Shown here one piece after another: positions 21,868-57,943 of a stretch of 64,000 nucleotides of DNA. The position numbers were made by a program, and so were the translations under genes. Positions within the stretch are counted from its first letter, which is position 1. Every line of letters starts with the position of its first letter. The stretch lies in the IMG/VR virus record IMGVR_UViG_3300025070_000023. One strand, 5' to 3'. The stretch is from an uncultured virus (IMG/VR IMGVR_UViG_3300025070_000023). Lineage: Duplodnaviria > Heunggongvirae > Uroviricota > Caudoviricetes. The notes under the pieces are model-generated. The model was not told the DNA's origin. It did no database searches and saw only the letters and a program-made list of their open reading frames with translations.

Positions 21868-24039
21868 TCAAATTTTCCAATGAGTAATTACTTCACAAGT
21901 CGTCATAGTTCTAGGTAAAACCGTTGCTTCTACGACGATTGCTCCTTTATCATCGGGTATTGGGAAGTTGTTTGCACTTAGCATATAATCTTCGAACTTA
22001 AGAGTTATTTTCTCATCATTTGATTTTTCAAATACTAAGGTTATTTCTGTTCCCGAACCAGTTTGTTCAGTTCTGTTTAGTAGTTCTTGATAGAGTCTAT
22101 CATCAGTAACATGACCTGTAAATTGTATTTCGTATGTTCTTTCAGCAGGTATTGCTTCTTGTATGGAAGTATTGCCGACTCCCAAGAATCTTCTATCCTG
22201 TAGATTATTATTCATAGTCAAAGTTAAAGTATTTATCTTTAAGAAGGTATGATTAAATACACTAAACACTCCATCGGAAAAGAAAAATGGCTCTCTAAAT
22301 TCTGCAATAGAAGAATAGTTATACAAATTAGTATCATCCTCTATGCCCCTTCTTCCATCATATGCTTCATTAGTTTCTAGTGCGTGAACTGCTCTTGTAT
22401 TTACATCAACGGTCATCTTTACTTCTTCATTCTCATTAGCAGTAAGAGATAGTGTATTTACACGACATCCTCTAGCGATTTTAACAAAGTTCATAGATTC
22501 TAAAGTTTCGGTAGAGTCTGTTCTAAACTTATCTGTTCCCTCTAATTTACTTAGAGTTTGTTCCATAGCAAAAGAAGGAAGATTATCTCCATTTTCCTCC
22601 GCTATAGTATAAGTTATTCCTTTAGTCATGGTAGTAGTTCCTGTTGGTGGGTCTAATTCTTTTAGCGTAGTATGCGCTTGTAAATGGTCGGGATTTGGTG
22701 GACAAAGAGTTGTTCCTACAGTTCTATGGAAAAATGGCCCCGTAGAAGAAATATTAGATGTTTTAACATATACTTTATCTTCTGTTCCTATATAGTCGCT
22801 ACTAGGAGTTCCTGCTAGAGTTGTAGCACTAATACTTGTCATAGCACCAAAGAAATAATATAACCATGTTCCTTGATTTGCTACTATTCCTAAATTACCA
22901 CCACTAGCAGTTTCAATTCCTTTGTATTGGTAGGTTTTATTTCTTGATGTTCCTAATGATAGATTTACTTGTTTAGTTTCTATTTCTGTAGTTGGGAAAG
23001 TTACGCTTTCTACTATTCCTAACCATCCATCGGATAGAAGTCTTTTAGCAGAAGTTGTGGTGGTAGCGGCTAAAGCCAATATTCCGTTTGTTCCTCCATT
23101 AGAAGTAATAGTCAAATTACCACTTCCACTAACAGAAGAACCTGCATTTGTTACTGTAACAGCAGTAATAATTCCTCCTTGAACTCCTCCTGCGTTTCCA
23201 ATTGTAGTAGCACTAGTTGTAGTTTCTGTAATATGTGTTCCTACATATCCACCAGTATTATTAGTAATAGTTAATTCAGCACCGCTTCTTGTAACAGTTA
23301 CATCTTTTCCTGCTAATGCCGTTAATACGGACTGTGCGATTTCAGCACCAGTAGCACTATCAGCAATAGCGACGGTTACTGAATCATTAGCCGATGCTGA
23401 TGGTGCGGAGGCTCCCGCAGTATTAAACAAAACTTGTAATGTAGTAATTCCATTTGTTCCCGAAGCGGAAGCAAGATTAATTGTTAAAAGTCCACTATCA
23501 TAATTTGTTCCGCTTTCAGCAGGAAAAGTAACAGTAGAAATTTCTGCGCTTAAAGTAAGGACTAATTCTGCGCCTGTAGTAGTTAAACCCGAAACACCAG
23601 TGATTGCGGCATTACCTATAATGGATTCATCAGCCTCAATTTGAGTTCCTCCATTAGTTATGGCCGGTTGAGCCAAAACCGATGTTGCTCCCGTTACTTT
23701 CTTAGCAGGAACAGGTGCGCCATATCCCTTAATTACGAAAAAATCACCATCATCAGGAGTTGCGGCAGGAGTAAAAGTTATTGTGTCTGCTGTATTAGCA
23801 GTAATTCTATGTGTAGTTTGGAGAGTAGTTCCAGTATATCTTTCTAAAAGACAACCGACATATAAATTATTTACTAGAGAATAATGAGTAGAAAAAGTGG
23901 TTGCGGCTTTAATCGTAGTCAATGAAGAATTATCAAATGCCCCACTTGGATTTTTTGTTGATTCGAAATAAATATCAAATTCCGGTATTTTCGTTATGCT
24001 TGCCCCGCTTCCTAGAAATATATCTGTATTAACTGTCAT
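21868..24039 (-). CDS. Major tail tube protein with long T/S/G/A-rich extra region
   Basis: C-terminal LPSFAME...GCRVNTLSL...LTMNNNL tube-like segments; upstream of chaperones. Confidence 0.65.
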   Translation of the reverse strand: MTVNTDIFLGSGASITKIPEFDIYFESTKNPSGAFDNSSLTTIKAATTFSTHYSLVNNLYVGCLLERYTGTTLQTTHRITANTADTITFTPAATPDDGDFFVIKGYGAPVPAKKVTGATSVLAQPAITNGGTQIEADESIIGNAAITGVSGLTTTGAELVLTLSAEISTVTFPAESGTNYDSGLLTINLASASGTNGITTLQVLFNTAGASAPSASANDSVTVAIADSATGAEIAQSVLTALAGKDVTVTRSGAELTITNNTGGYVGTHITETTTSATTIGNAGGVQGGIITAVTVTNAGSSVSGSGNLTITSNGGTNGILALAATTTTSAKRLLSDGWLGIVESVTFPTTEIETKQVNLSLGTSRNKTYQYKGIETASGGNLGIVANQGTWLYYFFGAMTSISATTLAGTPSSDYIGTEDKVYVKTSNISSTGPFFHRTVGTTLCPPNPDHLQAHTTLKELDPPTGTTTMTKGITYTIAEENGDNLPSFAMEQTLSKLEGTDKFRTDSTETLESMNFVKIARGCRVNTLSLTANENEEVKMTVDVNTRAVHALETNEAYDGRRGIEDDTNLYNYSSIAEFREPFFFSDGVFSVFNHTFLKINTLTLTMNNNLQDRRFLGVGNTSIQEAIPAERTYEIQFTGHVTDDRLYQELLNRTEQTGSGTEITLVFEKSNDEKITLKFEDYMLSANNFPIPDDKGAIVVEATVLPRTMTTCEVITHWKI

Positions 24040-24776: not shown

Positions 24777-26090
24777 TCAATCCAAGAAATAAACAATATC
24801 AGCCTTGCCCTTTAGAGTGTCCATGGCTTCCTTTCTTAATATATCATATTTTTCTTTAGTAGTAATATTAGCACCCGTTTCAGCAATAAGAACTGATTGG
24901 TCATCATTTCTTAATATTTCAGCCGCAGATAATTTTGTAGTTGCCTCATGAATAGCGGAAGGAACTCTAGTATCTCCTGCAACATATGTAACAACTACAG
25001 AATTATCCATATGATAAGGATAATCTTTTAGGAAAAATATTCTACCTTCTTCGTTAATAGTCCAATAGTCTCCTAATCTTCTCAAATCTTCTTTATCGGT
25101 GAAATCAGTAATGATGCAAACTGAAGGTATGCTTTGTCCTGTTGCCGTTGTAAAAGTTACAATCTCATTACTTAGTCCGTCATTAGTGATTGCCTTGTCT
25201 AAAACAATAGTTGTAGGATTTGTTATTGAGGTGATTGAAGTATCACTAGGAATATCAGTTCCCACTACAGACATGCCCACCACTAATTTGCTAGAATCTT
25301 GAACAGTTAAACTAGTAGATGTATTACTTCCCGAACAAGTCTGTTGGGTGCTTACTTTAATTGTGCATTCCGAACCATCATCCCCCGAAAGTAGGGAGGA
25401 AATGAGAATGCGCTTGCCATTATCTTTATCTTTAGAGGCATAGAAAAAGTCAGAAATAGTTAAATTATTACTAATTAGGCTTTTTGCCGCAGTTGCACCT
25501 GTAAATGTTGAAGTTGATGGGAATTCGCTGTTAATTAAAGCAGTTATGTCATTATTAGTGGTTTTTATTCCAAAAGTATTTGAAAACTCATCATTTCCTA
25601 AATTGCTTATATTATTTTCAGCGAGTAATGTAAATGACACTCCGCTATTTGGTAATTGTAATATAATAGAATGTATATCTCTAAAATTATCTAATAATTG
25701 TATTTTAGCCTGTGCAGATGCTATCTCTACATATTGCGTTCCTTGCCATACTAATAAAGAAACTATTTTACGAACTTTCATTTGTTTTAGTTGAATAAAT
25801 CCAACATGGCCACCATAATAAGAACGATGTGGCGGTCTTGAAAATTCAAAGTTGTGGTATTCGTCTTTTGTTACTATTGGTCGAAAAGACCTTTTTATTT
25901 TATCATCAACTATCCCTTCTATTCTTTTTATTATTGCACCTACTTGTGCTAATGTTGGAAAAGTAGTATTTGTAAATGCAGGAACTTGTAAAATATTAGC
26001 CACTTCAGTAGCATTAGTGTAAAAACCTCTCCCTTGACTATAATCAGGATTTATTTCCGTAAAATCGCTAGGGGAGAAGGTGGTTCCCAT
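24777..26090 (-). CDS. Putative head-tail adaptor with internal insertion
   Basis: YTNATEV N-terminus and VTYVAG..VPSAIHEATTKL C-terminus resemble adaptor proteins. Confidence 0.55.
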   Translation of the reverse strand: MGTTFSPSDFTEINPDYSQGRGFYTNATEVANILQVPAFTNTTFPTLAQVGAIIKRIEGIVDDKIKRSFRPIVTKDEYHNFEFSRPPHRSYYGGHVGFIQLKQMKVRKIVSLLVWQGTQYVEIASAQAKIQLLDNFRDIHSIILQLPNSGVSFTLLAENNISNLGNDEFSNTFGIKTTNNDITALINSEFPSTSTFTGATAAKSLISNNLTISDFFYASKDKDNGKRILISSLLSGDDGSECTIKVSTQQTCSGSNTSTSLTVQDSSKLVVGMSVVGTDIPSDTSITSITNPTTIVLDKAITNDGLSNEIVTFTTATGQSIPSVCIITDFTDKEDLRRLGDYWTINEEGRIFFLKDYPYHMDNSVVVTYVAGDTRVPSAIHEATTKLSAAEILRNDDQSVLIAETGANITTKEKYDILRKEAMDTLKGKADIVYFLD

Positions 26091-28147
26091 TATGACTCCA
26101 CCTCTTCTGTTACATCTCCGAATTTTCTTTCTATGGTTCTAATTTTAGTTTTCAAATCATTTACTCGGCTAGCCATTGGTCTATTAGCACTTTCTCTACC
26201 TGCGGGTTTAAGATTGAATTTGCCTTCTTGTCTTACATAGAAATCTAAAGCAAGCAAGAAAGGTATCTTTTTACTAAGAAACCCCTCTCCTGTAATCATT
26301 TCGCTTAATTTTAAATCACCAATAGCGTAAGTCTTTTTTCCTACAAAATTTACAGAAGATTTAACATTTTCAATTCCTGCACCAGTTTGCATAGTTAGAT
26401 TGGGAGCATATTTTTCTTTATCATCTAATGATAGTTTAGCATATTCATCAAAAGATATAAACTGTTCAGCAGTTTTTCTAGTTCTATTAAAGAGTTCTTT
26501 AAATTCTTCTAATTCCTCAATGTCTAATAACCTCATAACTTCGTCGGCTTTTTCTTCCATATCTTGAATATTTTGTAAAACCTTCTCATATGTAGCATTG
26601 TCAATAGTTTCGTCTTTTACTAATTGAATATCTCCTATCTTTACTGATTTACCAGTATATTTCCAAGAGAGTTTTTTCTTATCCTTTGTTTTTAGATTTT
26701 CTTTTAATACGAATGCTTTTTTTCCTAATTCATCCAATTTTTCCTTTCTTGCTTTTGCATCAATTTCGTTTAAATTTGTAAGTTTTACTTTACCTTTATC
26801 ATCAAGATTATCTCTAGAACCAATAGTAAAGCCCTCTAATTCTGCATCATCTTGCACTAGACTTTCTTTAAATTGGTCAAATGTTGCCTCGGCTCTTTCA
26901 CTTTTACTAAACTTGCCGCAAATAATAGGAACCATTATATCAGTAGCAGATTCTAAATAAGGTCTAAATATTTCTTGTATTTGTGCGTTGTTCTCCTCTA
27001 TTAATTTTGGAATATCTGTATCGTTTGTAAATTCAACAAATGCTTGTTTTAGTCTATATTGTGAACTAGAAGGGGCTTTAAAACCGTATAGTCCTTTTTT
27101 CCCGTCTACTTCTAATTCAAAATATTCTGCTTTACTTTCTATTGTAGCATTATATTGTTCGTGAGTAGGTTGTCCTTTTGCTTTCTCCCTAAAACCCAAT
27201 GTTCCTTCTCTTACTATTTCATAGTTTACCATAGTTTTAGGTTCACTACTTCCTTCTCTATAAGTGGGATTAGGTATTCTAGTTTTCTTATATTCATACC
27301 ATTCTATTGGTCTTTCTGCGGCTTGTTCAGTTACCTTCTTAATTACCTTATCACTAAATCTAACTTCGGTATTAAATACATCACTACCTATTTTGAATGT
27401 CTGTGTTTTACTTCTTTCCGGTATTGGGTTTTGTCCAGTTATCTCTCTTATATGATTTGTTTTAAGTTCTTCTAAGTCAGTAGATTTTATGTTCCCGTAG
27501 GTCATTTTAAAGTGATAGTTTTTTCCGTCCTGCTTAACATCCCCTTCGGGCATAAAAGAAAAAACTCCTGTTCCGCTACCTGTTTCTATATTTTCTTTTT
27601 CCCTTAAAATCATATCTTCTTGAATGGGAACATCGTTGTTTTTTTGAGTCCTTATGAAAGTTCTAAAATCAAAAGGAGGTAAATTCAATTTTTGGGTTCC
27701 TCTTTCAGCGAACTTTAATGCGCCTACACCGGAGAGTTTTTCTCTAACATCTCCGTCTTTGACCTCTTTTAGTTTTAAATTTTCTGCGTATCTAACATTG
27801 AAAGTATTTTCTGCACTACCTTCTTTTCCAGTTTTCATTCTACTAAATCTAGTCCAACCGTAACCGTCATTGTTAATATAAGAAATAAGGGGTTCTTCTT
27901 TAAAAAAATCTTTAATTATTTTAACGAACTCTTTTTCTACTAATTCTTTTCTTTCTTCCTTTTCATCTTCGCTTAGTTGGGTATCGGCCTCTATAGCCTT
28001 GATAGTTTTATTATATTCTCTAAGTAAGTCTTTTGTTTTTTTAGGTCTGCCTTTAGCATCCATATGTCCTTTTAATGTATTTATAATATCATTTCTACCC
28101 ATATCTTTAGATATATCAATATCTGACCCCTTCCAACTTATAATCAT
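26090..28147 (-). CDS. Large charged hypothetical protein
   Basis: 685-aa ORF in late operon. Confidence 0.7.
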   Translation of the reverse strand: MIISWKGSDIDISKDMGRNDIINTLKGHMDAKGRPKKTKDLLREYNKTIKAIEADTQLSEDEKEERKELVEKEFVKIIKDFFKEEPLISYINNDGYGWTRFSRMKTGKEGSAENTFNVRYAENLKLKEVKDGDVREKLSGVGALKFAERGTQKLNLPPFDFRTFIRTQKNNDVPIQEDMILREKENIETGSGTGVFSFMPEGDVKQDGKNYHFKMTYGNIKSTDLEELKTNHIREITGQNPIPERSKTQTFKIGSDVFNTEVRFSDKVIKKVTEQAAERPIEWYEYKKTRIPNPTYREGSSEPKTMVNYEIVREGTLGFREKAKGQPTHEQYNATIESKAEYFELEVDGKKGLYGFKAPSSSQYRLKQAFVEFTNDTDIPKLIEENNAQIQEIFRPYLESATDIMVPIICGKFSKSERAEATFDQFKESLVQDDAELEGFTIGSRDNLDDKGKVKLTNLNEIDAKARKEKLDELGKKAFVLKENLKTKDKKKLSWKYTGKSVKIGDIQLVKDETIDNATYEKVLQNIQDMEEKADEVMRLLDIEELEEFKELFNRTRKTAEQFISFDEYAKLSLDDKEKYAPNLTMQTGAGIENVKSSVNFVGKKTYAIGDLKLSEMITGEGFLSKKIPFLLALDFYVRQEGKFNLKPAGRESANRPMASRVNDLKTKIRTIERKFGDVTEEVES

Positions 28148-28157
28148 GGAAAACGCC

Positions 28158-28808
28158 TCACATTAACCATTTAGCCCAAGCCGCACCTTTTTGTATTGCT
28201 GAGCCTAATCCTAAACCGCTTTGTGGGGGTTCGTAAGACATTTGACCTTGAGCATCTACCCAATATGGCCTACCATATCCATCTGTTCCGCTAGGAGGAA
28301 TAGGATAACCAGTACCATTATTCATGGCACTATTCATTTGATTAAATTGTTGAGTATTTCCAGTTACATTTGCTAATGCCATTCCTGCTGATGGTTGTTG
28401 TCCGATTCCACCACCAAATCCTTGTGATTCTAAATATTGCTGTTTTGCCATTTTTCTTTGATTAATTACTTCGCTGTTGATAGCAGAACTTAATAATTTT
28501 TGAATATCTAAATCTATATTTTCTTGAGTAATTCTTTCGTATTCTCTAAGACAATCGGGGTTCACCGTTATTTTAGTTCCATCAGTGGAAAAAGATAGTT
28601 TAGATAACATTTGTGAAACTACTCTTTCTGTTACATCTTCCATTAATTTTTCAAGAGCCGTTAAGAAATGCTCACCATGATATTGAAAGAACTCTTCAAC
28701 ATGGTTATCTTGTAAAGATAGTAAGTTATTTACATTCTTGAATTGTTGGTCGCTTTGCTGTTGTACAGAAGCCAACACCGTTCCATTACTTGTTCCTAGT
28801 ATTCCCAT
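28158..28808 (-). CDS. Q/G-rich protein with C-terminal amphipathic helix
   Basis: Ends LGLGSAIQKGAAWAKWLM. Confidence 0.65.
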   Translation of the reverse strand: MGILGTSNGTVLASVQQQSDQQFKNVNNLLSLQDNHVEEFFQYHGEHFLTALEKLMEDVTERVVSQMLSKLSFSTDGTKITVNPDCLREYERITQENIDLDIQKLLSSAINSEVINQRKMAKQQYLESQGFGGGIGQQPSAGMALANVTGNTQQFNQMNSAMNNGTGYPIPPSGTDGYGRPYWVDAQGQMSYEPPQSGLGLGSAIQKGAAWAKWLM

Positions 28809-28810
28809 AT

Positions 28811-29470
28811 TTATTCCTCCGTTTCTTCTTCCGGAACCTTAATTTGATTGTTTAACAGTAAATGGTTTATTCTATCTGTCATGATATTGACTTCCGTTAC
28901 CAATCTAATTACTTCCTCCGTAGCGGTCTTGTTATCTGCTAGTGCGGGTGGTTTTATAAACCATCCTGCTGAAGTTAAGGATGCTACATCGTTTTTATTT
29001 AAAGTAGTTAATGGCCCACTTTTTAGAATTTTAGGCATTCTAGGTTTAAATGCCGCAAAGTCTAATCCGTGTTTATCTGCAAGTATTTGCTGTTGTAACA
29101 TTTCTAACTGCATATACATAGAAGCGTGTTTTGGACAATAAGTTCCCATTAGAGGTCTACCCTTAGTTACTTTATCTAGAGGTATTGGTGGTCGCATGTA
29201 ATCTCCTTGTTGCCAAATATGATGAAAACCGCACACTACACATCTATCCTTTAAGTTAAACTTTTTACCGTATTTTATTCCTAAGAATTTTTTAGGTTCA
29301 GATTTTAATACTGCTGTTAATTCTGCTAATTGTTTTTTAGGTTTAATTGCCACAAACTTGTATTCAGTTATAGCCCCACTTGCTCTTGCCTGTTGTAGCG
29401 GAGTCCTATTAAAATTACCAAAAGCAGGGTTTGGTGTGTTCTGTCCTATTATATTTGGTTGGTTATACAT
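28811..29470 (-). CDS. Putative Zn-binding protein with C-terminal coiled coil
   Basis: CVVCGFHH...YCPKH. Confidence 0.65.
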   Translation of the reverse strand: MYNQPNIIGQNTPNPAFGNFNRTPLQQARASGAITEYKFVAIKPKKQLAELTAVLKSEPKKFLGIKYGKKFNLKDRCVVCGFHHIWQQGDYMRPPIPLDKVTKGRPLMGTYCPKHASMYMQLEMLQQQILADKHGLDFAAFKPRMPKILKSGPLTTLNKNDVASLTSAGWFIKPPALADNKTATEEVIRLVTEVNIMTDRINHLLLNNQIKVPEEETEE

Positions 29471-29480
29471 CTTTAATTCC

Positions 29481-30149
29481 TCAATAATCTTTTATCATTG
29501 TTGTTACACCCCTATATACCATTTCGGGGTCGGATTTCGCTGAAACAATATATTTGAAACAGGGTATTCCCTTCTCATTTAACTGCCTCATTCCATACTT
29601 AAAAGGTTCAAATATTTCATGGTTGTCCATACTAGCCCCTTCTGTTAGTGGGTATTTTTCCGACCATATATCATATTTGTTAGCCCAAATCCCCACAGCC
29701 ATAGGATAATCTATTTCTTTTTTCTTTCTTCCTGTAGGCCAAGTATTTGCTACAATAGTGTCTACTAGAAATTTCCATGCTAATTGATGGTCTAAATTAG
29801 ATGAAGAGTCTAAGTGTCTATGGTCAATCATAAAAATAATATATTTTACTTTTCTTTTTTGCATATCCTTTACCCATTCTTTCCAGTAAATAGCCTCTCC
29901 GCCTATATCTGCACTTTTTATTGTATGGGAGTTTCCATCAATTTTTATATTTTTTCTGCTCGCTCTATGCAAGCCAACAGTTCTTTTATTCACTTGTGGA
30001 ACTTCTCCTCTTGTTCTAAGTTGTTTGCTAAGGGTTGTTTTACCAACCATTGTAGAACCATACACACCAAAGTTAATTGCATGAACTTTTTTGTAAAAGC
30101 CTATTAATGCTTCACCAACTAATATAGCAAAGCCCGTCATTATAGACAT
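29481..30149 (-). CDS. Small Ras-superfamily (Arf-like) GTPase
   Basis: G1 GSTMVGKT, G2 RTVG, G3 DIGG, G4 NKYD, G5 SAK. Confidence 0.85.
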   Translation of the reverse strand: MSIMTGFAILVGEALIGFYKKVHAINFGVYGSTMVGKTTLSKQLRTRGEVPQVNKRTVGLHRASRKNIKIDGNSHTIKSADIGGEAIYWKEWVKDMQKRKVKYIIFMIDHRHLDSSSNLDHQLAWKFLVDTIVANTWPTGRKKKEIDYPMAVGIWANKYDIWSEKYPLTEGASMDNHEIFEPFKYGMRQLNEKGIPCFKYIVSAKSDPEMVYRGVTTMIKDY

Positions 30150-30368
30150 TTAATGCCCCCAAATATCCTTAGCCCTCTCTATAATCCAACCCATTATATT
30201 AATGTCAAAGACTCCCATAATATTACCAATTAAAAACATAGCCAAAGTAGAGAATCCTCCCCAAAACCAAGCCTTCATTTTCAAAAAGAAAATATCAGCA
30301 GAATGCGCTCTAGATTGATTATAAGCATAATCGGAGTCGGAAAAACCCATCAAGTCGCCAAAGACCAT
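30150..30368 (-). CDS. Small membrane protein
   Basis: Hydrophobic AWFWGGFSTLAMFLIGNIMGVF. Confidence 0.65.
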   Translation of the reverse strand: MVFGDLMGFSDSDYAYNQSRAHSADIFFLKMKAWFWGGFSTLAMFLIGNIMGVFDINIMGWIIERAKDIWGH

Positions 30369-30377
30369 TTAACCACC

Positions 30378-30761
30378 TCATTGGAGTGCGGCTAAAAATT
30401 CATTACCGACGGTATTTTCTTCAGCCGGTTCAGTATTGCTGTAAAAGTTAGTATTGTATTGTCTAGCACTTTCACGCATCTTTTGTCTTTGCTGTTCGTC
30501 TCTAGCCTTTCTTTCCCAATATGCGGATATCTTTCTATCTAGTAGCCACATTTCTATCTTGTCATTTAGTGCTAAATCGAACAATGCTTTCATTACCATT
30601 ATTGCTCCTATTGTTCCAAGCCCAAATAGAACTGAATGTGCTAATGGCCCATATGGGAAACCTGTTCCGAATTGAGCATAAGCAAATACATTTGCCCCAC
30701 TTAATGTTCCTACGAACAATATAGTCATAACTAGTCTAGTATCTTGATTTAAAACAGCCAT
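30378..30761 (-). CDS. Two-TM membrane protein with C-terminal coiled coil
   Basis: Two hydrophobic segments then ERKARDEQQRQKMRE; start ATG 30761 after GAGG. Confidence 0.65.
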   Translation of the reverse strand: MAVLNQDTRLVMTILFVGTLSGANVFAYAQFGTGFPYGPLAHSVLFGLGTIGAIMVMKALFDLALNDKIEMWLLDRKISAYWERKARDEQQRQKMRESARQYNTNFYSNTEPAEENTVGNEFLAALQ

Positions 30762-30771
30762 TTGTAAAACC

Positions 30772-31047
30772 TCAAGCGAATTCAATAGAACATGCAACTT
30801 GGCCGGAAGTTTCTTCAAAGAAAAGCCCTGTGCTACATATTACTCCATGCATATCAAACTCTTTAGTTTCATTGGCAGATAGAACTATTCTAGCAACTTC
30901 TTTGCCACTATTACTAGTTCCATCAAATACCTTTATTGTAGCCGCACTACCACTAACTTCGCAAACATGAATTGAAACCAATTTACATTGACCAGTAAAA
31001 ACCAATTTACTTGCTGTTAATACACCGCTACTTCTGCATGAAGCCAT
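30772..31047 (-). CDS. Small putative virion protein
   Basis: 91-aa beta-rich ORF downstream of capsid genes. Confidence 0.55.
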   Translation of the reverse strand: MASCRSSGVLTASKLVFTGQCKLVSIHVCEVSGSAATIKVFDGTSNSGKEVARIVLSANETKEFDMHGVICSTGLFFEETSGQVACSIEFA

Positions 31048-31101
31048 ACTATCTACTCCCTTGAGACTAACTACAATACCAATACCATTTAAGATTATTG
31101 T

Positions 31102-32056: not shown

Positions 32057-33394
32057 TCACAGAAGGTTTGTAATCTTTCCTTGACCCTTGAAGTATGAAC
32101 AAGCCATTTCACCAATTGTTCGGTATAGAGCCTTGTTTCCAAGGTTGCCAACACCGAATGGGTTTCCGTTACTAATACCATCTTCAAAGTATTGAGTTGG
32201 CTTCATCACTGATAGCCATAGATGGTCAGTATCTAGAACAAGCATGTCACCGATTAGAGAACTGTTTAGACCAGTAGAAGGCATAGCCGCTACAGGAATC
32301 AATGGGATATCGTAGTATGTAGAAACTCTAAATCCTACTTCTGCACCCTTAACGCCTCTAACACCATTTACAGTTGGAACAATCTCTTTTCTGTCCATAA
32401 ATCTCTCTTGTGCTTGTAGCAAATCACTTAGAGTTTGTAGAGTATCATATCCAGTTAGGATAACCTTTGGAGAACCTCCGGCTACTCTAATATCTCTTAG
32501 TAGAGAATTTAGAACTGTTAGAGTTAGTTGTCTTGCTTCACCGGAAGTATAACCTGCACCAAATGAAACTTGAGCATCTAGGAATGAATCACTTGCTCTT
32601 GACTTTCCATATAGTTTGTTAATGTCATCAGTTCGTGTAGCAACTACACTTGAAGCCTCCATTTCTGTCAATTCAGCATTACTAGAAACAATTTTCAATA
32701 GAGAAGTATAGTTTCTTTCCATTACATCTGCTGAACCGGAGTTGGCAGTAACATCTTGATAATGCTCAAGTGGCATTACTAGCATAGCGTTTTGAACTTC
32801 CGAATGGTGCTTACCCATGTCTTCTCTCAATTGCGCTCTAATGTCACCAATTCCGTCATCAATTGCCGCCATTTCCATAGCAAGTTCACTGAACTCAAAT
32901 TGATGAGCAATAATTTTAGGGCTAGTATTTAGCAAATCATATTCAGGAGCAATTGACATTAAACCATCTGCTTGACTATCTAGACTTGCATTTTCCGGAA
33001 CACCACCAATTCGGTCTGCTCTTAGAGTATCTGCACCATATAGTGAATCTGCTAGTGTAGCATTTCCGGTAATTGATAGGAAGTTTCCGCTTCCACCACC
33101 GGCTCTCTTTGCCAAAACTCTCCAACCACTTGATGTATATGGCCTCTTTGAAATAACTGAAAGTGCATTACATTCCCTGTTTAGCATTGACCAAACTTTT
33201 TGCCCATACATAATATTGTATAGATTTGCATTTATTCCGCTTGGTGCGGAAGTTGCATGTCCGTGGTTATATGCGGTATGAATACCACTAATGCCACCTT
33301 GAGCCTTTAATAGTTCATTTCCGATTGAACCCATTGTGTTTAGTCCGTATGTGCTTGCTTCTAAATCTGCTATTGTGTTAATATATCCTGTCAT
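32057..33394 (-). CDS. Major capsid protein (HK97-type)
   Basis: Follows prohead protease; 445 aa; GGVPEN, PKIIAH, YYDIPLIP, GKITNL end. Confidence 0.8.
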   Translation of the reverse strand: MTGYINTIADLEASTYGLNTMGSIGNELLKAQGGISGIHTAYNHGHATSAPSGINANLYNIMYGQKVWSMLNRECNALSVISKRPYTSSGWRVLAKRAGGGSGNFLSITGNATLADSLYGADTLRADRIGGVPENASLDSQADGLMSIAPEYDLLNTSPKIIAHQFEFSELAMEMAAIDDGIGDIRAQLREDMGKHHSEVQNAMLVMPLEHYQDVTANSGSADVMERNYTSLLKIVSSNAELTEMEASSVVATRTDDINKLYGKSRASDSFLDAQVSFGAGYTSGEARQLTLTVLNSLLRDIRVAGGSPKVILTGYDTLQTLSDLLQAQERFMDRKEIVPTVNGVRGVKGAEVGFRVSTYYDIPLIPVAAMPSTGLNSSLIGDMLVLDTDHLWLSVMKPTQYFEDGISNGNPFGVGNLGNKALYRTIGEMACSYFKGQGKITNLL

Positions 33395-33405: not shown

Positions 33406-34647
33406 TCAAATGAGTCCTCCGGCCATTTTATGAATGTCCGACCAATCCATTTCAGCCAGTTCTTCCATACTTGGGAGTTTAATTTGTGCTTCTTCTTGTG
33501 CCTTTAGTATTGTTTCTTTTTCTGTTGTCAAAGACTTTCTTAGGGAAACAAATTCATCTTTTAGGGAAGCAATTTCTGCTTGAGCATCATAGTTTGCCTT
33601 TTCTATTACTGTTTCTCTATTTGCTGTTTCTCTAGCAAATCTTTGTGCAAAAGACTTTTCTAGATTGCTGTAAGCCAACTTTTCTAGTTGTTCTTGTCGG
33701 AAAGCCTCATATGCTTTCTCAATGTTTCCAACAGTCAAATCAAGTGTTTCTAGTTCAGTATTGCTAAATGCTTTAACAACTGGTAAATCACTTGCTTTTG
33801 GCTTTCCATTGTCAATAACAATTCTATCTGCGGGTTCGCCAATTTCTACACCTGCTCCATCAAGAGTGGATAAAAGGGCTTTTCTTTCTTCCATGAGTTT
33901 CTCATAGTCTCCCTTTTCTTGGTCTAGAGGCATGGCAGATTCTTTATCATCGTCTTCCATTTTCTCGCCCATCATTTTTTCGTTCATCTTTTCATCCGTC
34001 TCATCCATCTTTTCACCATCTGCCATTTCTTCCTTACGGAGAGAATTGACTTCTGCCATCAAAGCGTCTAATTCTTCCAATGCTTTCTCTATTCGTGTCA
34101 TACTTTTCACCTTTGTTTTTGTTTTTGTTTTTTTGTCTTGTTTTAAAATATCAAATCGTGCTTCTGGATTTATTCCCTTTTCACAAATTGTTACCTCATG
34201 TAATTCTAATTTACTTATTTCGTTGTAGTCGCCTAGTTCTTTGTGACTCTTTTTCACTTTTTCTAAAGCCTGTCCTCCAATACTAAATGACCTCAACGAA
34301 CCTTTCCTTATGCCTCTATTAATTTCTTTGGCTTTTTCTATATCATCTCTTAACTTAATTACTACAAAGAACCCAACATCGTCCACTTCTGTTTTCCATA
34401 ATCTCCCTGTTGTATCTCTATATGATTCTACTACTTCTCCCACTTGAACATTTGAATGATTTGTCATTACATTTCTAAACTTGGGATTCTCCATATATTT
34501 TTTTACTGCCTCATTAAGTGCTTTGAGTGTGATTAAATCATTTTGCTTATCAACGATTTCTATGCTTGCATATCCTCCAATCATTAAATCGTTGCTTTTG
34601 AGAATCCTAAAGTCTGTTGTTTTGTTTGCCAATACCGCAGACGACAT
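33406..34647 (-). CDS. Prohead protease fused to C-terminal scaffold
   Basis: IGGYAS..IVDKQND, H in MTNHS, SFSIGG, LHEVTIC..GINPEA; acidic coiled-coil tail. Confidence 0.88.
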   Translation of the reverse strand: MSSAVLANKTTDFRILKSNDLMIGGYASIEIVDKQNDLITLKALNEAVKKYMENPKFRNVMTNHSNVQVGEVVESYRDTTGRLWKTEVDDVGFFVVIKLRDDIEKAKEINRGIRKGSLRSFSIGGQALEKVKKSHKELGDYNEISKLELHEVTICEKGINPEARFDILKQDKKTKTKTKVKSMTRIEKALEELDALMAEVNSLRKEEMADGEKMDETDEKMNEKMMGEKMEDDDKESAMPLDQEKGDYEKLMEERKALLSTLDGAGVEIGEPADRIVIDNGKPKASDLPVVKAFSNTELETLDLTVGNIEKAYEAFRQEQLEKLAYSNLEKSFAQRFARETANRETVIEKANYDAQAEIASLKDEFVSLRKSLTTEKETILKAQEEAQIKLPSMEELAEMDWSDIHKMAGGLI

Positions 34648-34676
34648 TCCTCTCAAAAACTAATTAATAGAACGAC

Positions 34677-34684
34677 TATATAAA
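34677..34684 (-). promoter_or_regulatory. TATA-box candidate for protease-MCP transcript
   Basis: TTTATATA about 30 nt upstream of ATG 34647 in a short intergenic gap. Confidence 0.45.
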
Positions 34685-34699
34685 GAACACACTGTTTTT

Positions 34700-37642
34700 T
34701 TATTCAGGCAAGGGTGTTTTAGCAAATTTATCTTCATAAATATTCCAAATACCTTCATCACCTTCAGTATCAGCAGGTTCTTGTTTATATCCAGTCCAAG
34801 CCAACCACATCTTTTTCTCTTGAACAGGTAAATAACGAATATGTAGTTTAGTTTCGAATTTGTTTCCTTTTAAGAAATATTCATGATATCCGTCTCTTTG
34901 GACTCCTAACTCAATATCTCCCGAATCAATTACCTTTCCTTGTTCTAAACTTTTAGAAACTTCAGCAGGATATTTTCCTGCCGCACCGAACAAATCAAAC
35001 AACTCTTCTTCATTATCTAGTTGAATAGTCCAAAACATAGACTCATTTTCTACTAATATTCCAAAAGAAACATTACCATCTTCTCTATCGTATATTTTGA
35101 ATTTACCTGTTCTATATTCTTTAGGAGTTTTATAGGCTTTTAACATAGCATACTTGTCTGTAAAATCTGAACCGAAACCCATTTTACATCTATCATATTC
35201 TTCTAACATTTCTCTTGCCTTTGGTATAGATTCAATTTGCCTTACTAATTCTTCACATTCAGTATTGGCTACTGTTATTTCTGCTAACTGCCTTAACTCT
35301 TCTACAGTTGTAAGAGTGACTCCATTTAGTCGCTCATAATCATCAATAACCTGTCTAGCGGAAGGGTCATCCCTAAGATTTGTTCCTTTTAATGAATCTA
35401 AACCTTCATTGACTCCTTGTAGATATTTTTGTTTTAAATCATTACAACATTTATCTTCATCAGTAGAATCATAAGACATAGATACCATAGGTGTTTCCTT
35501 TTGTCTTTCAATAGTTATTGGAACATTACGCATTGGTTTTCCACCTTTATTTGCTAATTCCATTAATGCCCCCATGACAGATTTAGCGATAGTATCTTCC
35601 TGTAGAACTTTGCTAGGGTCTACTAGGAATTTATTTCCCTCTTTTTCTAATCCGTCTCTTTGGGGAACAAAATCAGCAAGGTTCGTTTCTTTTCCTTGTA
35701 AAGTATCTTCATAAATAGCAGGATGTTTTTGATTTAGAAACTCATGAGTTTCTTTTATGGTTCTAGGTTTTGGTTTTAGATAATGATATAAAATTAATGC
35801 CAAATCATTATTTTTACTTTTCATAACTTCTTCTGCTTGATTCTTCCACATATCTAAATCAGCCAAAGCATTCTTAGACATCAAATTATTCTCTTCAAAA
35901 CCATATAATACAAAGCCACTAGTGTCGTATTTTGCTATAATAGTTGTCTCACCGTGAATATAGTCTGTAACTTTAATTCCCTTTTCTAAAGCGACAACAT
36001 CATAGTTAAGTGATTTCTTAGTATCTTGAGAAAGTATCTCTAGAGTAATTGGTTTATCCGGATATTCTACTTCGGGAACTTCTATTACTTTGGCAGAAAA
36101 CAAACTATAACTTTCTCCCTTTTTCTTGACTTCATCTACCTTTACTCTAATGATATCGCCAACATCAACATTAATTTTAGTATTGAGTGCTTTACCTACA
36201 TTCATATAATTTTGACCTTTTATTTCTACTAATCCTTCGATATCCTGTAAAACCGGCCCCACTCCTACAGAATATGAAAATAAATTACTTTTGGTTTTAT
36301 TTTTATCTAAAACTATAACATCCAAGTCTACAAAGTTTTTCCATTTTATCCATTTAGGATTCTTTTTAGTTCCAATATAATATGTTGAAGTAGCGTCTTT
36401 TATTACAACTCCTTCTGCTGTTGGTATTTCCATCATTTCTTTAGAATATTTTTCTAAGTCTTCTAAGTTATCTGCCTGTCTAGTATCTTTCTTAGAAGGA
36501 TAAGCAATCGCTTCGCCACTTTTAGCAGAATAATTATTGAAAAGAATGGTCATTCTATTAGATAATTCTTCTTCGGCCAAAGTCTGTGATTCGTGCCTCA
36601 TAATATCAAAAACATGACATCTTAATTTAGCATCTTTATATTTATTTTTGAATACATGGGCGATAGTATCTGCCCTGTGTAATGCTTCATTACCATCAAA
36701 TAATATTAGTTCCCCATCTAGAATACAATCCCCATATTCTTTCTTATTTAATTCTTGGACTTGAGCAGAACATTTATCTGTGATATTTTTCTCATTGTAA
36801 GAATAAATAGTAACCTTGCCATCTAACTTATGCAATTGTATTCTCATACCATCGTATTTTTCTTGAACAAACCAATCGCCACTAAATCCCTTTAGTTGCT
36901 CAATGTCTTCTATTTCAAAAATCCTATACATTGGTTTGTTAGGTACAATAAAGTGTGAGAGGGATTTTTCTTCTTTTTCTCCGTCTTCGTTCTTTTCAAT
37001 CTCTACTAACTCTTCCCAATCTTCTTCATCATTCCTAGAAAAGAAAATCGTTTCTAAAATATCCATAGCGGCCTTTACCTTTCCTTCGACTTCCCTAGAA
37101 TCCTTGCCGTCTCCATAGTGTTCGATAATATACAGCCCTATGTCGTCTGCCTCTAGGTCAAGTCCATCAAGACCCTCCGTTATTGTGTCACTTTGCATGT
37201 CTTTTATTGCTAATACATCCTTTGAAAGTGCTTTATTATCGTTTCTTAGTGCATAATGCACAAATTTAACCATAGTCTCCGGATTACTCAATAATTCTTC
37301 AAGAACATTACCTTTGAACATATCAGCAAATGGGTCAATTACAATTTTAGAAGTATATCTTAAAAGTTTAATATCTTCAAAGAGTTTCTGTGCCTTTAGA
37401 CTTTCAGGATTCTTTGTGTCTTTATCTTTTAAATCTTCTTCTTCAATAAATCTCTTAAGTTCTTTTCCTACTGCATTTAATTTTTCATATGATTCTATAA
37501 TCATATCTACAGCATTTTGCCATCTACTTCTGTATTCTTTTGGGTCTTCTTTTGCTGATAAATAGGCGACTCTAGATTTTTCAAACAATCTAAGTATTTC
37601 TACCGAAGGTTGTTTGTCCTTCTCGATAGAGTCTAGTTTCAA
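34700..37642 (-). CDS. lig: ATP-dependent DNA ligase with long N- and C-terminal extensions
   Basis: QEKYDGMR (motif I), LDGEL, FDIM, EGVVIK, WIKWK, then OB fold. Confidence 0.9.
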   Translation of the reverse strand: MKLDSIEKDKQPSVEILRLFEKSRVAYLSAKEDPKEYRSRWQNAVDMIIESYEKLNAVGKELKRFIEEEDLKDKDTKNPESLKAQKLFEDIKLLRYTSKIVIDPFADMFKGNVLEELLSNPETMVKFVHYALRNDNKALSKDVLAIKDMQSDTITEGLDGLDLEADDIGLYIIEHYGDGKDSREVEGKVKAAMDILETIFFSRNDEEDWEELVEIEKNEDGEKEEKSLSHFIVPNKPMYRIFEIEDIEQLKGFSGDWFVQEKYDGMRIQLHKLDGKVTIYSYNEKNITDKCSAQVQELNKKEYGDCILDGELILFDGNEALHRADTIAHVFKNKYKDAKLRCHVFDIMRHESQTLAEEELSNRMTILFNNYSAKSGEAIAYPSKKDTRQADNLEDLEKYSKEMMEIPTAEGVVIKDATSTYYIGTKKNPKWIKWKNFVDLDVIVLDKNKTKSNLFSYSVGVGPVLQDIEGLVEIKGQNYMNVGKALNTKINVDVGDIIRVKVDEVKKKGESYSLFSAKVIEVPEVEYPDKPITLEILSQDTKKSLNYDVVALEKGIKVTDYIHGETTIIAKYDTSGFVLYGFEENNLMSKNALADLDMWKNQAEEVMKSKNNDLALILYHYLKPKPRTIKETHEFLNQKHPAIYEDTLQGKETNLADFVPQRDGLEKEGNKFLVDPSKVLQEDTIAKSVMGALMELANKGGKPMRNVPITIERQKETPMVSMSYDSTDEDKCCNDLKQKYLQGVNEGLDSLKGTNLRDDPSARQVIDDYERLNGVTLTTVEELRQLAEITVANTECEELVRQIESIPKAREMLEEYDRCKMGFGSDFTDKYAMLKAYKTPKEYRTGKFKIYDREDGNVSFGILVENESMFWTIQLDNEEELFDLFGAAGKYPAEVSKSLEQGKVIDSGDIELGVQRDGYHEYFLKGNKFETKLHIRYLPVQEKKMWLAWTGYKQEPADTEGDEGIWNIYEDKFAKTPLPE

Positions 37643-44949: not shown

Positions 44950-45414
44950 CTAGTCCTCTTTGTAGGGGCGATATCTAAACATAGGCAAAACCTTCATTTG
45001 GTTATACATATCCTCGGGCATTATATCATCTACTTGAGAATACTCTTCTATTCTTAACCCTCCTCTTTTTTCTACCATGTCAAATAGTCTTTGATTATCT
45101 GTTCCTTTTAATGGATTTAATAAAGTCACTTGTGCTTTATCCGAGCCTAGTTTGGAATCCCTATATTTGAGAACCTTACCATAAGAACCTTTGACAAATG
45201 AAAAACTGTTTCCTACAAAATAAAACTTATCGAATTCCTTGAATGAAGTATATCCTTTTAGTTTTCCAGTATCGTCATCGAAATCTGCAACAATATTAAG
45301 AGGATGAATAATAGAAGGATATCCTTTATCTTCTGCCTTTATGAATTCATCTAGGTCTAAGAGTTTCTCTTCGGGTAGAATCTCTATCCTCTTTAATATG
45401 TTCCACCAAGACAT
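44950..45414 (-). CDS. Tagged protein (MSWWNILK), unknown cargo
   Basis: Start reassigned to ATG 45414 just after upstream stop. Confidence 0.7.
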   Translation of the reverse strand: MSWWNILKRIEILPEEKLLDLDEFIKAEDKGYPSIIHPLNIVADFDDDTGKLKGYTSFKEFDKFYFVGNSFSFVKGSYGKVLKYRDSKLGSDKAQVTLLNPLKGTDNQRLFDMVEKRGGLRIEEYSQVDDIMPEDMYNQMKVLPMFRYRPYKED

Positions 45415-45415
45415 T

Positions 45416-45784
45416 TCAACTACCTTTACGCCACTTTTTGTTTTTCTTTTCTTTGGTTTTCTTAGGACTCCATTTTTCTTTATTAGCCCAATAAGCCGCA
45501 GACATTTTCCCACGCTTGATATTTTCAGCATGACGAGATTTGAAGGCTTCTCTTTGCCCTTTAGTTTGATTTGTTTTGACACCTTTCTGTCCGAATTTCA
45601 TGTATTTTGCTTTCTTACTTTTGGCATCCCAAGCCATTACATGATGAGACTTGCTTTTATCATCTCTTAGTGCCTGTGCGTCATTCAATCCGGAAAGACC
45701 TTTTTTTCTTGCTCTTTCCAATGCCCGTTTTCTAGGACTTTTGGGTTTCTTTTTCTTTTTGAGAATATCCATCCAATCACTCAT
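45416..45784 (-). CDS. Tagged basic protein (MSDWMDILK), DUF5754-like cargo
   Basis: KFGQKG...FKSRH...SAAYWA..KW recalled similarity. Confidence 0.65.
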   Translation of the reverse strand: MSDWMDILKKKKKPKSPRKRALERARKKGLSGLNDAQALRDDKSKSHHVMAWDAKSKKAKYMKFGQKGVKTNQTKGQREAFKSRHAENIKRGKMSAAYWANKEKWSPKKTKEKKNKKWRKGS

Positions 45785-46352: not shown

Positions 46353-46356
46353 GCTA

Positions 46357-46707: not shown

Positions 46708-46737
46708 GCTTTCATCCTCTTTGTTTTTCTTTTTCAT

Positions 46738-47951: not shown

Positions 47952-47952
47952 A

Positions 47953-48715: not shown

Positions 48716-48720
48716 AATTA

Positions 48721-53612: not shown

Positions 53613-53618
53613 TATAAA

Positions 53619-54520: not shown

Positions 54521-54521
54521 T

Positions 54522-55823: not shown

Positions 55824-55833
55824 TCTAATCACC

Positions 55834-56196: not shown

Positions 56197-56201
56197 TTTA
56201 A

Positions 56202-56399: not shown

Positions 56400-56444
56400 A
56401 GTTTTCACCCCTTATCTATCCGTTAATGCCCATATGTTATAGTT

Positions 56445-56693: not shown

Positions 56694-56702
56694 AGTATCA
56701 TC

Positions 56703-57934: not shown

Positions 57935-57943
57935 ATTATTCGC

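What the first reader, a model, noticed from the sequence alone, without database searches (positions are those of the whole stretch)
28158..30761. Five-gene Arf-like GTPase plus membrane protein module in the late operon: candidate egress/membrane-remodelling system
Seen: a GTPase with all five G motifs, Arf/Sar1-style DIGG...W and IIFMID, and an N-terminal hydrophobic helix. It is tightly linked to a 2-TM coiled-coil protein, a 1-TM protein, a Cys/His protein and a Q/G-rich protein ending in an amphipathic helix. No holin or endolysin is recognisable in the window. Established: Arf/Sar1 bend membranes via N-terminal helices, and a small GTPase is linked to vesicle formation in haloarchaea. 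Inference: a virus-encoded lysis, budding or vesicle machine.
Basis: partly seen in the sequence, partly recalled or inferred. Interest (0 to 1): 0.82.

Follow-up and report, generated by a model that had tools for sequence, protein, structure and literature searches.

The report
Magrovirus membrane-anchored small GTPase cassette
A tailed virus of abundant ocean archaea carries a strongly conserved five-gene block built around its own membrane-anchored GTP switch; nobody has described it, and it may control how the virus breaks out of its host, but that job is untested.

Summary
Window 28158-30761 (minus strand) carries five tightly packed genes. They encode a 2-TM protein, a 1-TM protein, a 222-aa small GTPase with all G motifs and a hydrophobic N-terminal helix, a Cys/His protein and a Q/G-rich protein. 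All are under strong purifying selection (dN/dS 0.08-0.14; MCP 0.18).

The window is a magrovirus (a tailed virus of Marine Group II/Poseidoniales). The block is complete and in the same order in 63 of 64 close relatives. The same order recurs in two deeply divergent lineages, where the GTPase is 24-33% identical. In four related records it lies 20-23 kb from the capsid gene, so it moves as a unit. The cultured relative HVTV-1 lacks it. It is therefore not an ordinary virion part.

The family is virus-restricted: 79 hits among 1.84 billion representatives, and 5 short MAG contigs among 185,579 genomes. "Arf-like" is only partly supported. The G3/switch motifs and the top fold matches lean towards Arf/Sar1/SRbeta/Galpha/Rag, but Pfam thresholds are not met. 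The N-terminal helix looks like a transmembrane anchor (SRbeta-like), not an amphipathic one.

The egress function remains an inference. This scan has already noted the cassette on other DNA (99 notes, at least 80 genomes).

The parts
30378..30761 (-). g1: 127-aa membrane protein with two hydrophobic segments (9-29, 38-65) and a charged, Q-rich helical tail
   Evidence: ORF. The ATG at 30761 is preceded by TGAGG. TM windows. Found in 79 of 80 close loci. dN/dS 0.089. Profile-profile match to the positional counterpart in the distant lineage: P 6.5e-4 over 78 columns, against controls of 0.017-0.48. BLASTP to L081 gives 30% over 76 aa, E 3e-5.
30150..30368 (-). g2: 72-aa protein with one long hydrophobic segment (about 33-63) and a short Trp-rich C-terminus; its stop abuts the GTPase start (0-nt gap)
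   Evidence: Found in 79 of 80 close loci. dN/dS 0.118. In the distant lineage, 77 of 80 loci have a 55-115-aa ORF in the same position, but homology was not shown (hhalign P 0.017, equal to the best control).
29481..30149 (-). g3: 222-aa small GTPase with G1-G5 motifs and an N-terminal hydrophobic helix (residues 1-19)
   Evidence: Motifs and invariant residues. AF2 model: pLDDT 69.6, helix 2-24 followed by a Ras-like alpha/beta core. Fold matches Z 11-12.9 to Rag-like, Galpha, Arf6, SRbeta and Sar1. Weak sub-threshold Pfam and NCBIfam GTPase hits. dN/dS 0.081.
28811..29470 (-). g4: 219-aa Cys/His protein (C77-x2-C80 ... C112-P-K-H115), a possible metal site, with a Q/N-rich N-terminus and a long C-terminal helix
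   Evidence: Jackhmmer links it to the gene directly after the GTPase in 73 of 80 close and 80 of 80 distant loci. C77, G81, G104, C112 and H115 are invariant in 54 sequences. AF2 pLDDT 68.9. No fold match: best Z 4.5; in BFVD only its own homologue. dN/dS 0.116.
28158..28808 (-). g5: 216-aa protein with a helical N-terminal half, a Q/G/N/M-rich middle and a near-invariant C-terminal ...AIQKGAAWAKWLM
   Evidence: Found in 67 of 80 close loci, many of which end before it. hhalign to the distant-lineage counterpart: probability 87%, P 3.9e-6 over 94 columns. An ITQENID-type motif is shared with L173 and L176. C-terminus conservation and muH 0.35. dN/dS 0.141.

Best explanation
The five genes form one virus-specific functional module. 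It encodes a small GTPase held at the host cytoplasmic membrane by its own hydrophobic N-terminal helix, made together with two small membrane proteins (g1, g2) and two soluble orphan partners (g4, a probable metal-binding protein; g5, a Q/G-rich protein with a conserved C-terminal helix).

Shown: the genes are real, tightly linked, strongly constrained, co-inherited across deep magrovirus lineages, mobile as a block, and absent from cells.

Inferred: the GTPase domain faces the cytoplasm (the KK motif follows the helix) and cycles nucleotide (all binding residues are invariant). The module is made late, since it has no room for a promoter of its own inside the head-neck operon.

Most likely function (inference only): it controls or executes release of progeny through the host membrane. 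g1 has holin-like features (small, two TM segments, charged C-terminal tail) and would be the membrane-breaching element. The GTPase with g4 and g5 would be the switch that times or localises the breach.
For: The operon is tight, with gaps of 0-10 nt. dN/dS is 0.08-0.14, at or below the MCP value.

All five genes are in order in 63 of 64 close loci. The same order recurs in the distant set L081-L160 (positional candidates in 75-79 of 80 loci) and in L173/L176. Homology across lineages is supported for g3 and g4 (jackhmmer, 80 of 80) and for g5 (hhalign 87%).

The block is relocated as a unit. It lies 20-23 kb upstream of the MCP in G003, G004, G008 and G009, while terminase, portal, ligase, protease, MCP, neck and tube stay collinear with the window in G004. 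HVTV-1 has no GTPase and no such membrane cluster between its MCP and tail genes.

The cassette holds 3 of the 9 window ORFs with a hydrophobic 19-aa window; one other is the tape-measure-like protein. No holin, endolysin or other lytic enzyme was found by Pfam in 78 ORFs.

The family is virus-restricted. None of the five proteins carries the W-x-x-I-L-K leader seen on about 20 other proteins of this virus.

The review PMC10791045 (passages read) states that the players of lytic egress in head-tailed archaeal viruses are completely uncharacterised.
Against: No experiment or computation here touches function. None of the five proteins resembles a known holin, lysin, spanin or pyramid protein. 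No known lysis system uses a GTPase.

The cassette is missing from haloarchaeal relatives, which are reported to lyse their hosts (PMC10791045 passages). It cannot therefore be the general solution for tailed archaeal viruses.

Its place inside morphogenesis operons fits an assembly role equally well. Homology of g2 across lineages is not shown, and that of g1 is only suggestive.

The TM predictions rest on hydropathy windows alone. The N-terminal helix is less hydrophobic in other lineages (<H> 0.25-0.51).
Confidence: 0.38

Rival explanations
1. Membrane-anchored morphogenesis platform. The GTPase and membrane proteins tether or chaperone prohead or portal assembly, or DNA packaging, at the cytoplasmic membrane. 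The recalled precedent is phage T4, whose prohead assembly starts on the membrane with portal gp20 and the membrane chaperone gp40.
For: In the window the block lies between head and neck genes in one gap-free transcription unit. In the other lineage it lies on the same strand, upstream of the terminase, portal and head genes. It is conserved as strongly as core virion genes.
Against: Its position is not fixed relative to any head gene. HVTV-1 shares the MCP, protease and tail module but builds virions without it. No similarity to any head-assembly family was found in Pfam or PHROGs.
Confidence: 0.2
2. Host-envelope takeover unrelated to release. Examples are superinfection exclusion, blocking or rewiring host secretion or S-layer biogenesis, or a membrane-bound sensor of host state.
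For: Small membrane proteins are typical of exclusion systems (general knowledge). In the third lineage, the genes after the block encode proteins with N-terminal or C-terminal hydrophobic anchors (L176, L173). The distant lineage adds a third small membrane protein.
Against: Accessory functions of this kind are usually variable. This block is near-universal and highly constrained. There are no PADLOC matches. Placement in a late operon is unusual for exclusion genes.
Confidence: 0.2
3. Non-lytic release or vesicle formation. The GTPase drives budding of membrane vesicles, analogous to ArvA in haloarchaea.
For: In Haloferax, ArvA, a small GTPase with a hydrophobic N-terminal helix, is needed for vesicle formation. 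It sits in an operon with a Zn-ribbon protein, ArvC (PMC10927574, passages read). The viral block likewise pairs a GTPase with a Cys/His protein.
Against: None of the 54 g4 homologues matches ArvC's DUF2072, and no cassette protein matches ArvB's DUF2073. Tailed, non-enveloped virions have no known vesicle route. The exhaustive profile search found no large cellular GTPase family (79 hits only).
Confidence: 0.08
4. Ordinary virion or ejected proteins. The membrane proteins would be packaged and would form the DNA conduit on entry.
For: The block lies in the structural gene cluster. Ejection proteins of some phages have TM segments (general knowledge).
Against: The block relocates as a unit away from head and tail genes. 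It is absent from HVTV-1. There are no PHROG structural matches. The cassette proteins lack the shared N-terminal leader that may mark head cargo in this virus (the meaning of that leader is itself untested). A GTPase has no nucleotide supply inside a virion.
Confidence: 0.07

Closest known systems
Arf family small GTPases (Arf1/Arf6, Arl8, Sar1; Asgard ArfR)
   Same: The G3 motif has Gly-Gly (DIGG) followed by Trp at +11. The switch-I TVG and the hydrophobic strand IIFMID align with Arl8A/B. There is an N-terminal helix before the G domain. Arf6, Sar1, Arl13B, Arl15, Arl8B and Hodarchaeal ArfR are among the fold matches at Z 10.3-12.5. Five of 18 remote relatives pass Pfam's Arf cut-off.
   Different: The window protein does not reach the Pfam Arf threshold; Arf is not even listed at E<=0.1. 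The catalytic Gln is Glu here, and Q, H, D or E in other lineages. G5 is SAK, which is Ras-like. The N-terminal helix is uniformly hydrophobic rather than amphipathic. Foldseek ranks Ras and Galpha first. The protein is encoded by a prokaryotic virus with four orphan partners.
SRbeta (signal recognition particle receptor beta subunit)
   Same: It is an Arf-related GTPase anchored by an N-terminal transmembrane helix with the G domain in the cytoplasm. SRbeta structures score Z 12.4, 11.8, 11.4 and 10.9. SRPRB is a weak Pfam match in 15 of 54 members. One remote relative is named SRbeta by its source.
   Different: It falls below the Pfam cut-off (15.2 versus 25 bits). The G3 motif is DIGGE, not the DxPGH recalled for SRbeta. 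No SRalpha/SRX-like partner was recognised.
ArvA-ArvB-ArvC vesiculation operon of Euryarchaeota (PMC10927574)
   Same: It is a small GTPase with a hydrophobic N-terminal helix, in an operon with a Zn-binding protein, and it acts on the archaeal membrane.
   Different: There is no detectable similarity of g4 to DUF2072, or of any partner to DUF2073. The viral block adds two membrane proteins. ArvA itself was not compared directly because no reference sequence was available through the tools.
Phage holin/antiholin lysis cassettes
   Same: g1 is small, has two TM segments and a highly charged C-terminal tail. It sits next to a second small membrane protein in a late operon.
   Different: There is no adjacent endolysin and no sequence or family match. 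No known holin system contains a GTPase. The block is far more conserved than typical lysis genes.
Small GTPases of giant viruses (Rab, Ras, Ran of Nucleocytoviricota)
   Same: They are virus-encoded Ras-superfamily GTPases. All 10 BFVD matches at E<=0.001 are proteins of such viruses; 8 are named Ras/Rab/Ran GTPases and 2 are uncharacterised.
   Different: Those are recent captures of eukaryotic host genes without membrane partners. This one is in a tailed virus of archaea, is highly divergent, and comes with a fixed set of partners.

Membership tests
Ras-superfamily small GTPase (TRAFAC class) | G1 P-loop, G2 Thr, G3 DxxG, G4 NKxD and G5 SA-type motifs in order on a roughly 20-kDa alpha/beta fold | tested here: met
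   The motifs are at 31-38, 57, 81-84, 157-160 and 203-205. K37, T38, D81, G84, N157, K158 and D160 are invariant in 54 sequences. The AF2 core matches GTPases at Z 10-12.9.
Arf family (Pfam PF00025) | Score at or above the curated gathering cut-off (22.3 bits) | tested here: not met
   Arf is not listed for the window protein at E<=0.1. Nine of 54 family members give sub-threshold hits, best E 7.8e-4. P0121 scores 16.8 bits. Only remote relatives (5 of 18) pass.
Arf family | G3 DxGGQ with a switch-II Trp, and switch-I T(I/V)G | tested here: inconclusive
   DIGG, W92 and TVG align with Arl8. However, Gln is replaced by Glu85, which is invariant in this lineage, and switch I differs in the other lineages.
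Arf family | N-terminal amphipathic helix that inserts on GTP binding | tested here: not met
   A helix is present (model residues 2-24). Residues 2-19 have <H> 0.69 and muH 0.18, which is uniformly hydrophobic and anchor-like. Other lineages vary (muH 0.15-0.38).
Arf family | Interswitch toggle (two-residue register shift between the GDP and GTP states) | not testable with these tools
   This needs structures of both nucleotide states.
Arf family | Nearest solved structures are Arf/Arl/Sar | tested here: inconclusive
   By VIA-align, the top rows tied within 1 Z are a Rag-like Asgard GTPase, Gi, Arf6, Gs and SRbeta (Z 12.4-12.9). Sar1 is at 11.7, and Rab/Ras rows are at about 10. Foldseek ranks Ras and Galpha first at TM about 0.4. 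The model pLDDT is only 69.6.
SRbeta (Pfam PF09439) | Curated cut-off (25 bits) and an N-terminal TM anchor | tested here: inconclusive
   An anchor-like helix is present. The Pfam score is 15.2 bits, E 0.014, below the cut-off.
ArvABC vesiculation system | Partners with DUF2073 (ArvB) and DUF2072 (ArvC) next to the GTPase | tested here: not met
   No such Pfam match for g1, g2, g4 or g5 at E<=0.01, nor for the 54 g4 homologues at E<=1.
Holin | Small membrane protein with at least one TMD and a charged C-terminus, next to an endolysin, that permeabilises the membrane | tested here: inconclusive
   g1 meets the size, TMD and charged-tail criteria. There is no endolysin in the window and no holin family match. 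Activity cannot be tested here.

The most novel reading that the evidence does not exclude
Magroviruses carry a GTP-gated egress machine. A virus-encoded, membrane-anchored Arf/SRbeta-like GTPase, with a metal-binding regulator (g4) and a Q/G-rich adaptor (g5), decides when and where the small membrane proteins g1 and g2 open or remodel the host membrane. This could couple release to the nucleotide state of the exhausted cell. It would be the first defined lysis system of a tailed archaeal virus and the first lysis system of any virus run by a small GTPase.
Probability: 0.3. Interest if true: 0.85.

Novelty: new variant of a known kind. Interest (0 to 1): 0.62.

Why it matters
[quoted passage not shown] How head-tailed archaeal viruses leave their hosts is an acknowledged open question (PMC10791045, passages read).

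This cassette is a concrete, testable candidate. It has five small genes that can be expressed together or singly. It includes a GTPase with obvious switch mutants, and it shows natural variation at the catalytic position (E, Q, H, D).

Even if the function is not egress, it would still be notable. A small GTPase with fixed membrane partners in a prokaryotic virus would be a new setting for Ras-superfamily switches. Among predicted viral structures, only giant-virus proteins matched at E<=0.001, most of them named Ras/Rab/Ran GTPases.

Tried and rejected
- Complex prediction (GTPase plus g4 with GTP and Mg) was not available. No binding test was made.
- The search for related loci with alignment A2 failed for lack of a conserved stretch; a single protein was used instead.
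- Remote GTPase relatives P0170, P0189 and P0132 gave no viral-contig loci. Their cluster records carry no useful names beyond one 'SRbeta' label.
- Fold searches for g4 gave nothing: best Z 4.5 in PDB; in BFVD only its own homologue.
- ESM Atlas for g5 and g4 gave scores of 0.81 and 0.79, with no family and no model.
- PADLOC: 0 matches for 11 proteins.
- No longer or fused forms of the GTPase were found (weak evidence, as that tool notes).
- The sixth small 2-TM gene of the distant lineage has no counterpart in the window (best E 0.2).
- RNA libraries: five metatranscriptome runs hold small shares (0.06-0.12) of the sampled 31-letter words. The contigs of four of them (X1-X4), laid on the window, came from relatives. 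They cover mainly the protease, MCP and 199-aa genes, with only short pieces on g1 (30463-30746 in X1; 30694-30938 in X4). Contigs cannot rank genes, and DNA may be present in such libraries, so this neither shows nor excludes transcription of the cassette.
- My first literature search was set too loosely and returned only general GTPase papers.
- A phylogeny against Arf, Sar1, Asgard and haloarchaeal GTPases was not made.
Full report
**What is in the window.** The window is a magrovirus, a tailed virus linked to Marine Group II (Poseidoniales) archaea. The best named relative of the GTPase is a hypothetical protein, gp088, of 'Poseidoniales virus YSH_150918'. The minus strand carries these genes:
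- terminase (43509-44939) and portal (40318-41952);
- an ATP-dependent DNA ligase domain inside a 980-aa protein (34700-37642);
- prohead protease (33406-34656);
- HK97-type MCP (32057-33394);
- a neck or virion protein (24777-26090);
- a tube-like protein (21868-24039);
- a tape-measure-like protein and tail-fibre-like proteins.

A ligase embedded in the structural module is the feature Philosof et al. describe for magroviruses (PMC5434244, passages read).

**The observation.** Five minus-strand ORFs fill 28158-30761 exactly. Gaps between them are 9, 0, 10 and 2 nt, and 10 nt to each flanking gene.

The GTPase (g3) has G1 GSTMVGKT, T57, DIGG, NKYD and SAK. The nucleotide-binding residues are invariant in 18 close homologues and in 54 sequences spanning two deep lineages.

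Hydropathy windows predict two segments in g1, one long segment in g2 and the first 19 residues of g3.

In g4, C77, C112 and H115 are invariant, but C80 is not.

g5 is rich in Q/G/N/M and ends in a near-invariant ...AIQKGAAWAKWLM.

Median dN/dS of the window against up to 10 relatives (8-10 usable pairs per gene) is 0.08-0.14 for the five genes and 0.18 for the MCP. dS is close to saturation, so these are rough values.

**Co-conservation.** A word-indexed search found 394 homologues of the GTPase; the 120 listed are all at least 69% identical. In IMG/VR, 293 of 297 candidate stretches encode a relative, and 80 loci were kept.

Jackhmmer over all ORFs of the 160 loci held at that point found g1 and g2 in 79, g4 in 73 and g5 in 67 of these 80 loci; several loci end inside the block. 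Of the 64 loci with room for the whole block, 63 have all five genes, always in the order g1-g2-g3-g4-g5. The exception, L019, lacks only the g5 hit.

An exhaustive profile search of 1.84 billion representative proteins gave only 79 hits at E<=0.001. Among them are full-length proteins of 240-264 aa that define other lineages.

One of these, P0135, led to 80 further viral loci in which the GTPase is 24-33% identical to the window's. Another, P0136, led to four more loci.

In both lineages the GTPase is preceded by a TM-plus-basic-helix protein and by a 1-TM protein of about 75 aa. It is followed by a Cys/His protein and then a Q/G/N/M-rich protein. Positional candidates exist in 75 (g1), 77 (g2) and 79 (g5) of the 80 loci.

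Evidence for homology across lineages:

| Gene | Test | Result | Verdict |
|---|---|---|---|
| g4 | jackhmmer | 80 of 80 distant loci | supported |
| g5 | hhalign | probability 87%, P 3.9e-6 over 94 columns | supported |
| g1 | hhalign | P 6.5e-4, against 0.017-0.48 for six mismatched controls | suggestive |
| g2 | hhalign | P 0.017, equal to the best control | not shown |

The distant lineage adds a sixth small 2-TM gene (in 76 of 80 loci) that has no counterpart in the window.

**The block moves as a unit and is not needed for the basic virion plan.** In G004, a 118-kb record rated complete, these genes are collinear with the window: terminase, the gene after it, portal, ligase, protease, MCP, the neck protein, the tube protein and the gene after the tube. 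The cassette, however, lies at 15.8 kb, 22.7 kb upstream of the MCP, directly after a 2282-aa gene.

The same holds in G003, G008 and G009: 20-23 kb away, on the same strand. The third-lineage records G006 and G007 gave no MCP match with this query.

HVTV-1 is a cultured haloarchaeal virus whose MCP matches the window's. It has eight small genes between its MCP and its tail chaperones. None has a P-loop, and only one has a hydrophobic N-terminus. A tblastn search of the GTPase against 50,697 phage records found nothing.

These results argue against 'ordinary virion parts'.

**Restriction to viruses.** A scan of one genome for each of 185,579 prokaryote species confirmed only 5 loci. All are on MAG contigs of 8-16 kb labelled Maricaulis, Parvibaculum or Promethearchaeati, and are most simply explained as mis-binned viral contigs. 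No longer or fused forms were found.

**What kind of GTPase.** Sequence searches give only weak matches:
- Pfam MMR_HSR1 (E 0.0011) and Roc (0.0026), both below threshold;
- NCBIfam small_GTP at 22 bits, against a cut-off of 42.5;
- PDB sequences Arl8A and Arl8B at E about 0.7-0.9, with DIGG, W92, TVG and IIFMID aligned.

Across 54 family members the sub-threshold Pfam matches are MMR_HSR1 27, Roc 26, Ras 18, SRPRB 15 and Arf 9. Five of 18 remote relatives from the profile search pass Pfam's Arf cut-off.

The AF2 model is of middling quality (pLDDT 69.6, pTM 0.71). Foldseek against PDB ranks Ras and Galpha first at TM about 0.4.

The Foldseek-independent VIA-align search puts these rows at Z 11.7-12.9: a Rag-like Asgard GTPase, Gi, Arf6, Gs, SRbeta and Sar1. 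Arl15, Arl13B, Arl8B and Arf1 follow at about 11, and Rab, Miro and Ras-like rows at about 10.

The N-terminal helix of this lineage has <H> 0.69 and muH 0.18, which resembles a transmembrane anchor. In the other lineages <H> is 0.25-0.51 and muH is 0.15-0.38.

My reading: this is a very divergent Ras-superfamily GTPase that leans towards the Arf/Sar1/SRbeta/Galpha side. In its membrane anchor it is most like SRbeta. Membership of the Arf family was tested and not met at the curated threshold.

**The partners.** The g4 model (54-sequence alignment, pLDDT 68.9) has no fold match: best Z 4.5, and in BFVD only its own homologue at 61% identity. Pfam scans of its 54 homologues give only scattered noise, and none matches ArvC's DUF2072. 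There is no invariant Arg that could serve as a GAP finger. g5 and g4 gave no leads in the ESM Atlas. PADLOC has no match.

**Function.** The points in favour of a late, membrane-directed role, most likely release, are:
- the block's place in a gap-free stretch of the late operon;
- three membrane-associated products, of which g1 has holin-like features;
- the lack of any recognisable lysis gene among 78 ORFs;
- near-universal, strongly constrained conservation;
- independence from the head, neck and tail gene order.

The review by Kuiper et al. states that the players of lytic egress in head-tailed archaeal viruses are uncharacterised, and it mentions the haloarchaeal vesiculation GTPase only as a speculation for enveloped viruses (PMC10791045, passages read).

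Mills et al. show that ArvA with ArvB (DUF2073) and ArvC (a Zn-ribbon protein, DUF2072) drives vesicle formation (PMC10927574, passages read). The viral block resembles this in outline (a GTPase plus a Cys/His protein), but no homology was detected.

The points against are given in the Against line. The chief ones are that haloarchaeal relatives, which are reported to lyse their hosts, lack the block, and that an assembly role at the membrane fits the gene position equally well.

**In print?** 'GTPase' occurs 0 times in the main text of Philosof 2017, Xu 2023, Prabhu 2025 and Liu 2021. It also occurs 0 times in the supplementary files held for Xu 2023 (3 files) and Prabhu 2025 (2 files). Supplements of the other two papers were not looked at.

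Searches requiring 'Poseidoniales'+'virus'+'GTPase', and 'marine group II'+'viruses'+'small GTPase', returned 3 papers each, judged unrelated from their titles and abstracts in the search listing. Some database records already carry JGI's automatic name 'GTPase SAR1 family protein'.

This scan has noted the same cassette before on other DNA: 99 notes in at least 80 genomes, one of them marked 'part of it fell' without saying which part.

Noticed in passing
window 45408-60333, minus strand (starts near 60333, 60119, 59431, 59032, 58699, 58249, 57824, 56687, 56393, 55817, 53852, 53606, 48201, 47945, 47454, 46701, 46346, 45775, 45408): About 20 otherwise unrelated ORFs begin with the same peptide, M-(S/T)-W-x-x-(I/V)-(I/L)-K. 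In 23 of 63 related loci, extra variable genes with the same leader (MWFNILK, MWKNILK and similar) are inserted inside the cassette, between g2|g3 or g3|g4. None of the five cassette proteins has it. It could be a head-cargo targeting or cleavage tag like the T4 internal-protein CTS (recalled), or a shared recombination or translation-start box.
   Followed up: partly
L081 8781-10002; L083 11535-13179: In the distant lineage, several small Cys-rich (zinc-ribbon-like) proteins and a large basic protein carry an internal motif, AFxxGWSV(V/I)K, reminiscent of the W-x-x-I-L-K leader.
   Followed up: no
window 45777-46352 (-) and 44950-45582 (-): A 191-aa protein has a PAP2 (lipid phosphatase/haloperoxidase superfamily) domain, E 1.4e-12, and carries the leader peptide. 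It lies just upstream of a 210-aa protein with an N-terminal hydrophobic segment and of the terminase. It is a second possible membrane- or lipid-directed function in this virus.
   Followed up: no
window 34657-34699 and 31048-31101: The 43-nt gap upstream of the protease gene contains TTTATATA, an archaeal TATA-box-like sequence. The only other gap of at least 40 nt between here and the tail genes is the 54-nt gap after the 111-aa gene. RNA-library contigs of relatives cover about 31.1-34.5 kb most continuously. This is a weak hint of a strong protease-MCP transcript.
   Followed up: partly
window 26090-28147 (-): The K/E-rich gene directly after the cassette varies greatly in length among close relatives (377 to 861 aa, against 685 here), while its neighbours stay constant.
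   Followed up: no
window 61546-61854 (-): A 102-aa protein matches Pfam Kyano_Gp96 (E 2.7e-19), a family named after cyanophage proteins.
   Followed up: no
L177-L181: The only 'cellular' genomes holding the GTPase are MAGs labelled Maricaulis, Parvibaculum and Promethearchaeati, on 8-16-kb contigs. L177 is 86% identical to the window protein. These are probably viral contigs binned by mistake.
   Followed up: no
L118 491-7102; G004 about 8-15 kb: In the distant lineage the cassette always follows a giant gene of 1962-2364 aa with Cys motifs and no Pfam or PHROG match. BLASTP at E<=1e-3 found no similarity to the window's 2066-aa protein at 11347-17547.
   Followed up: no
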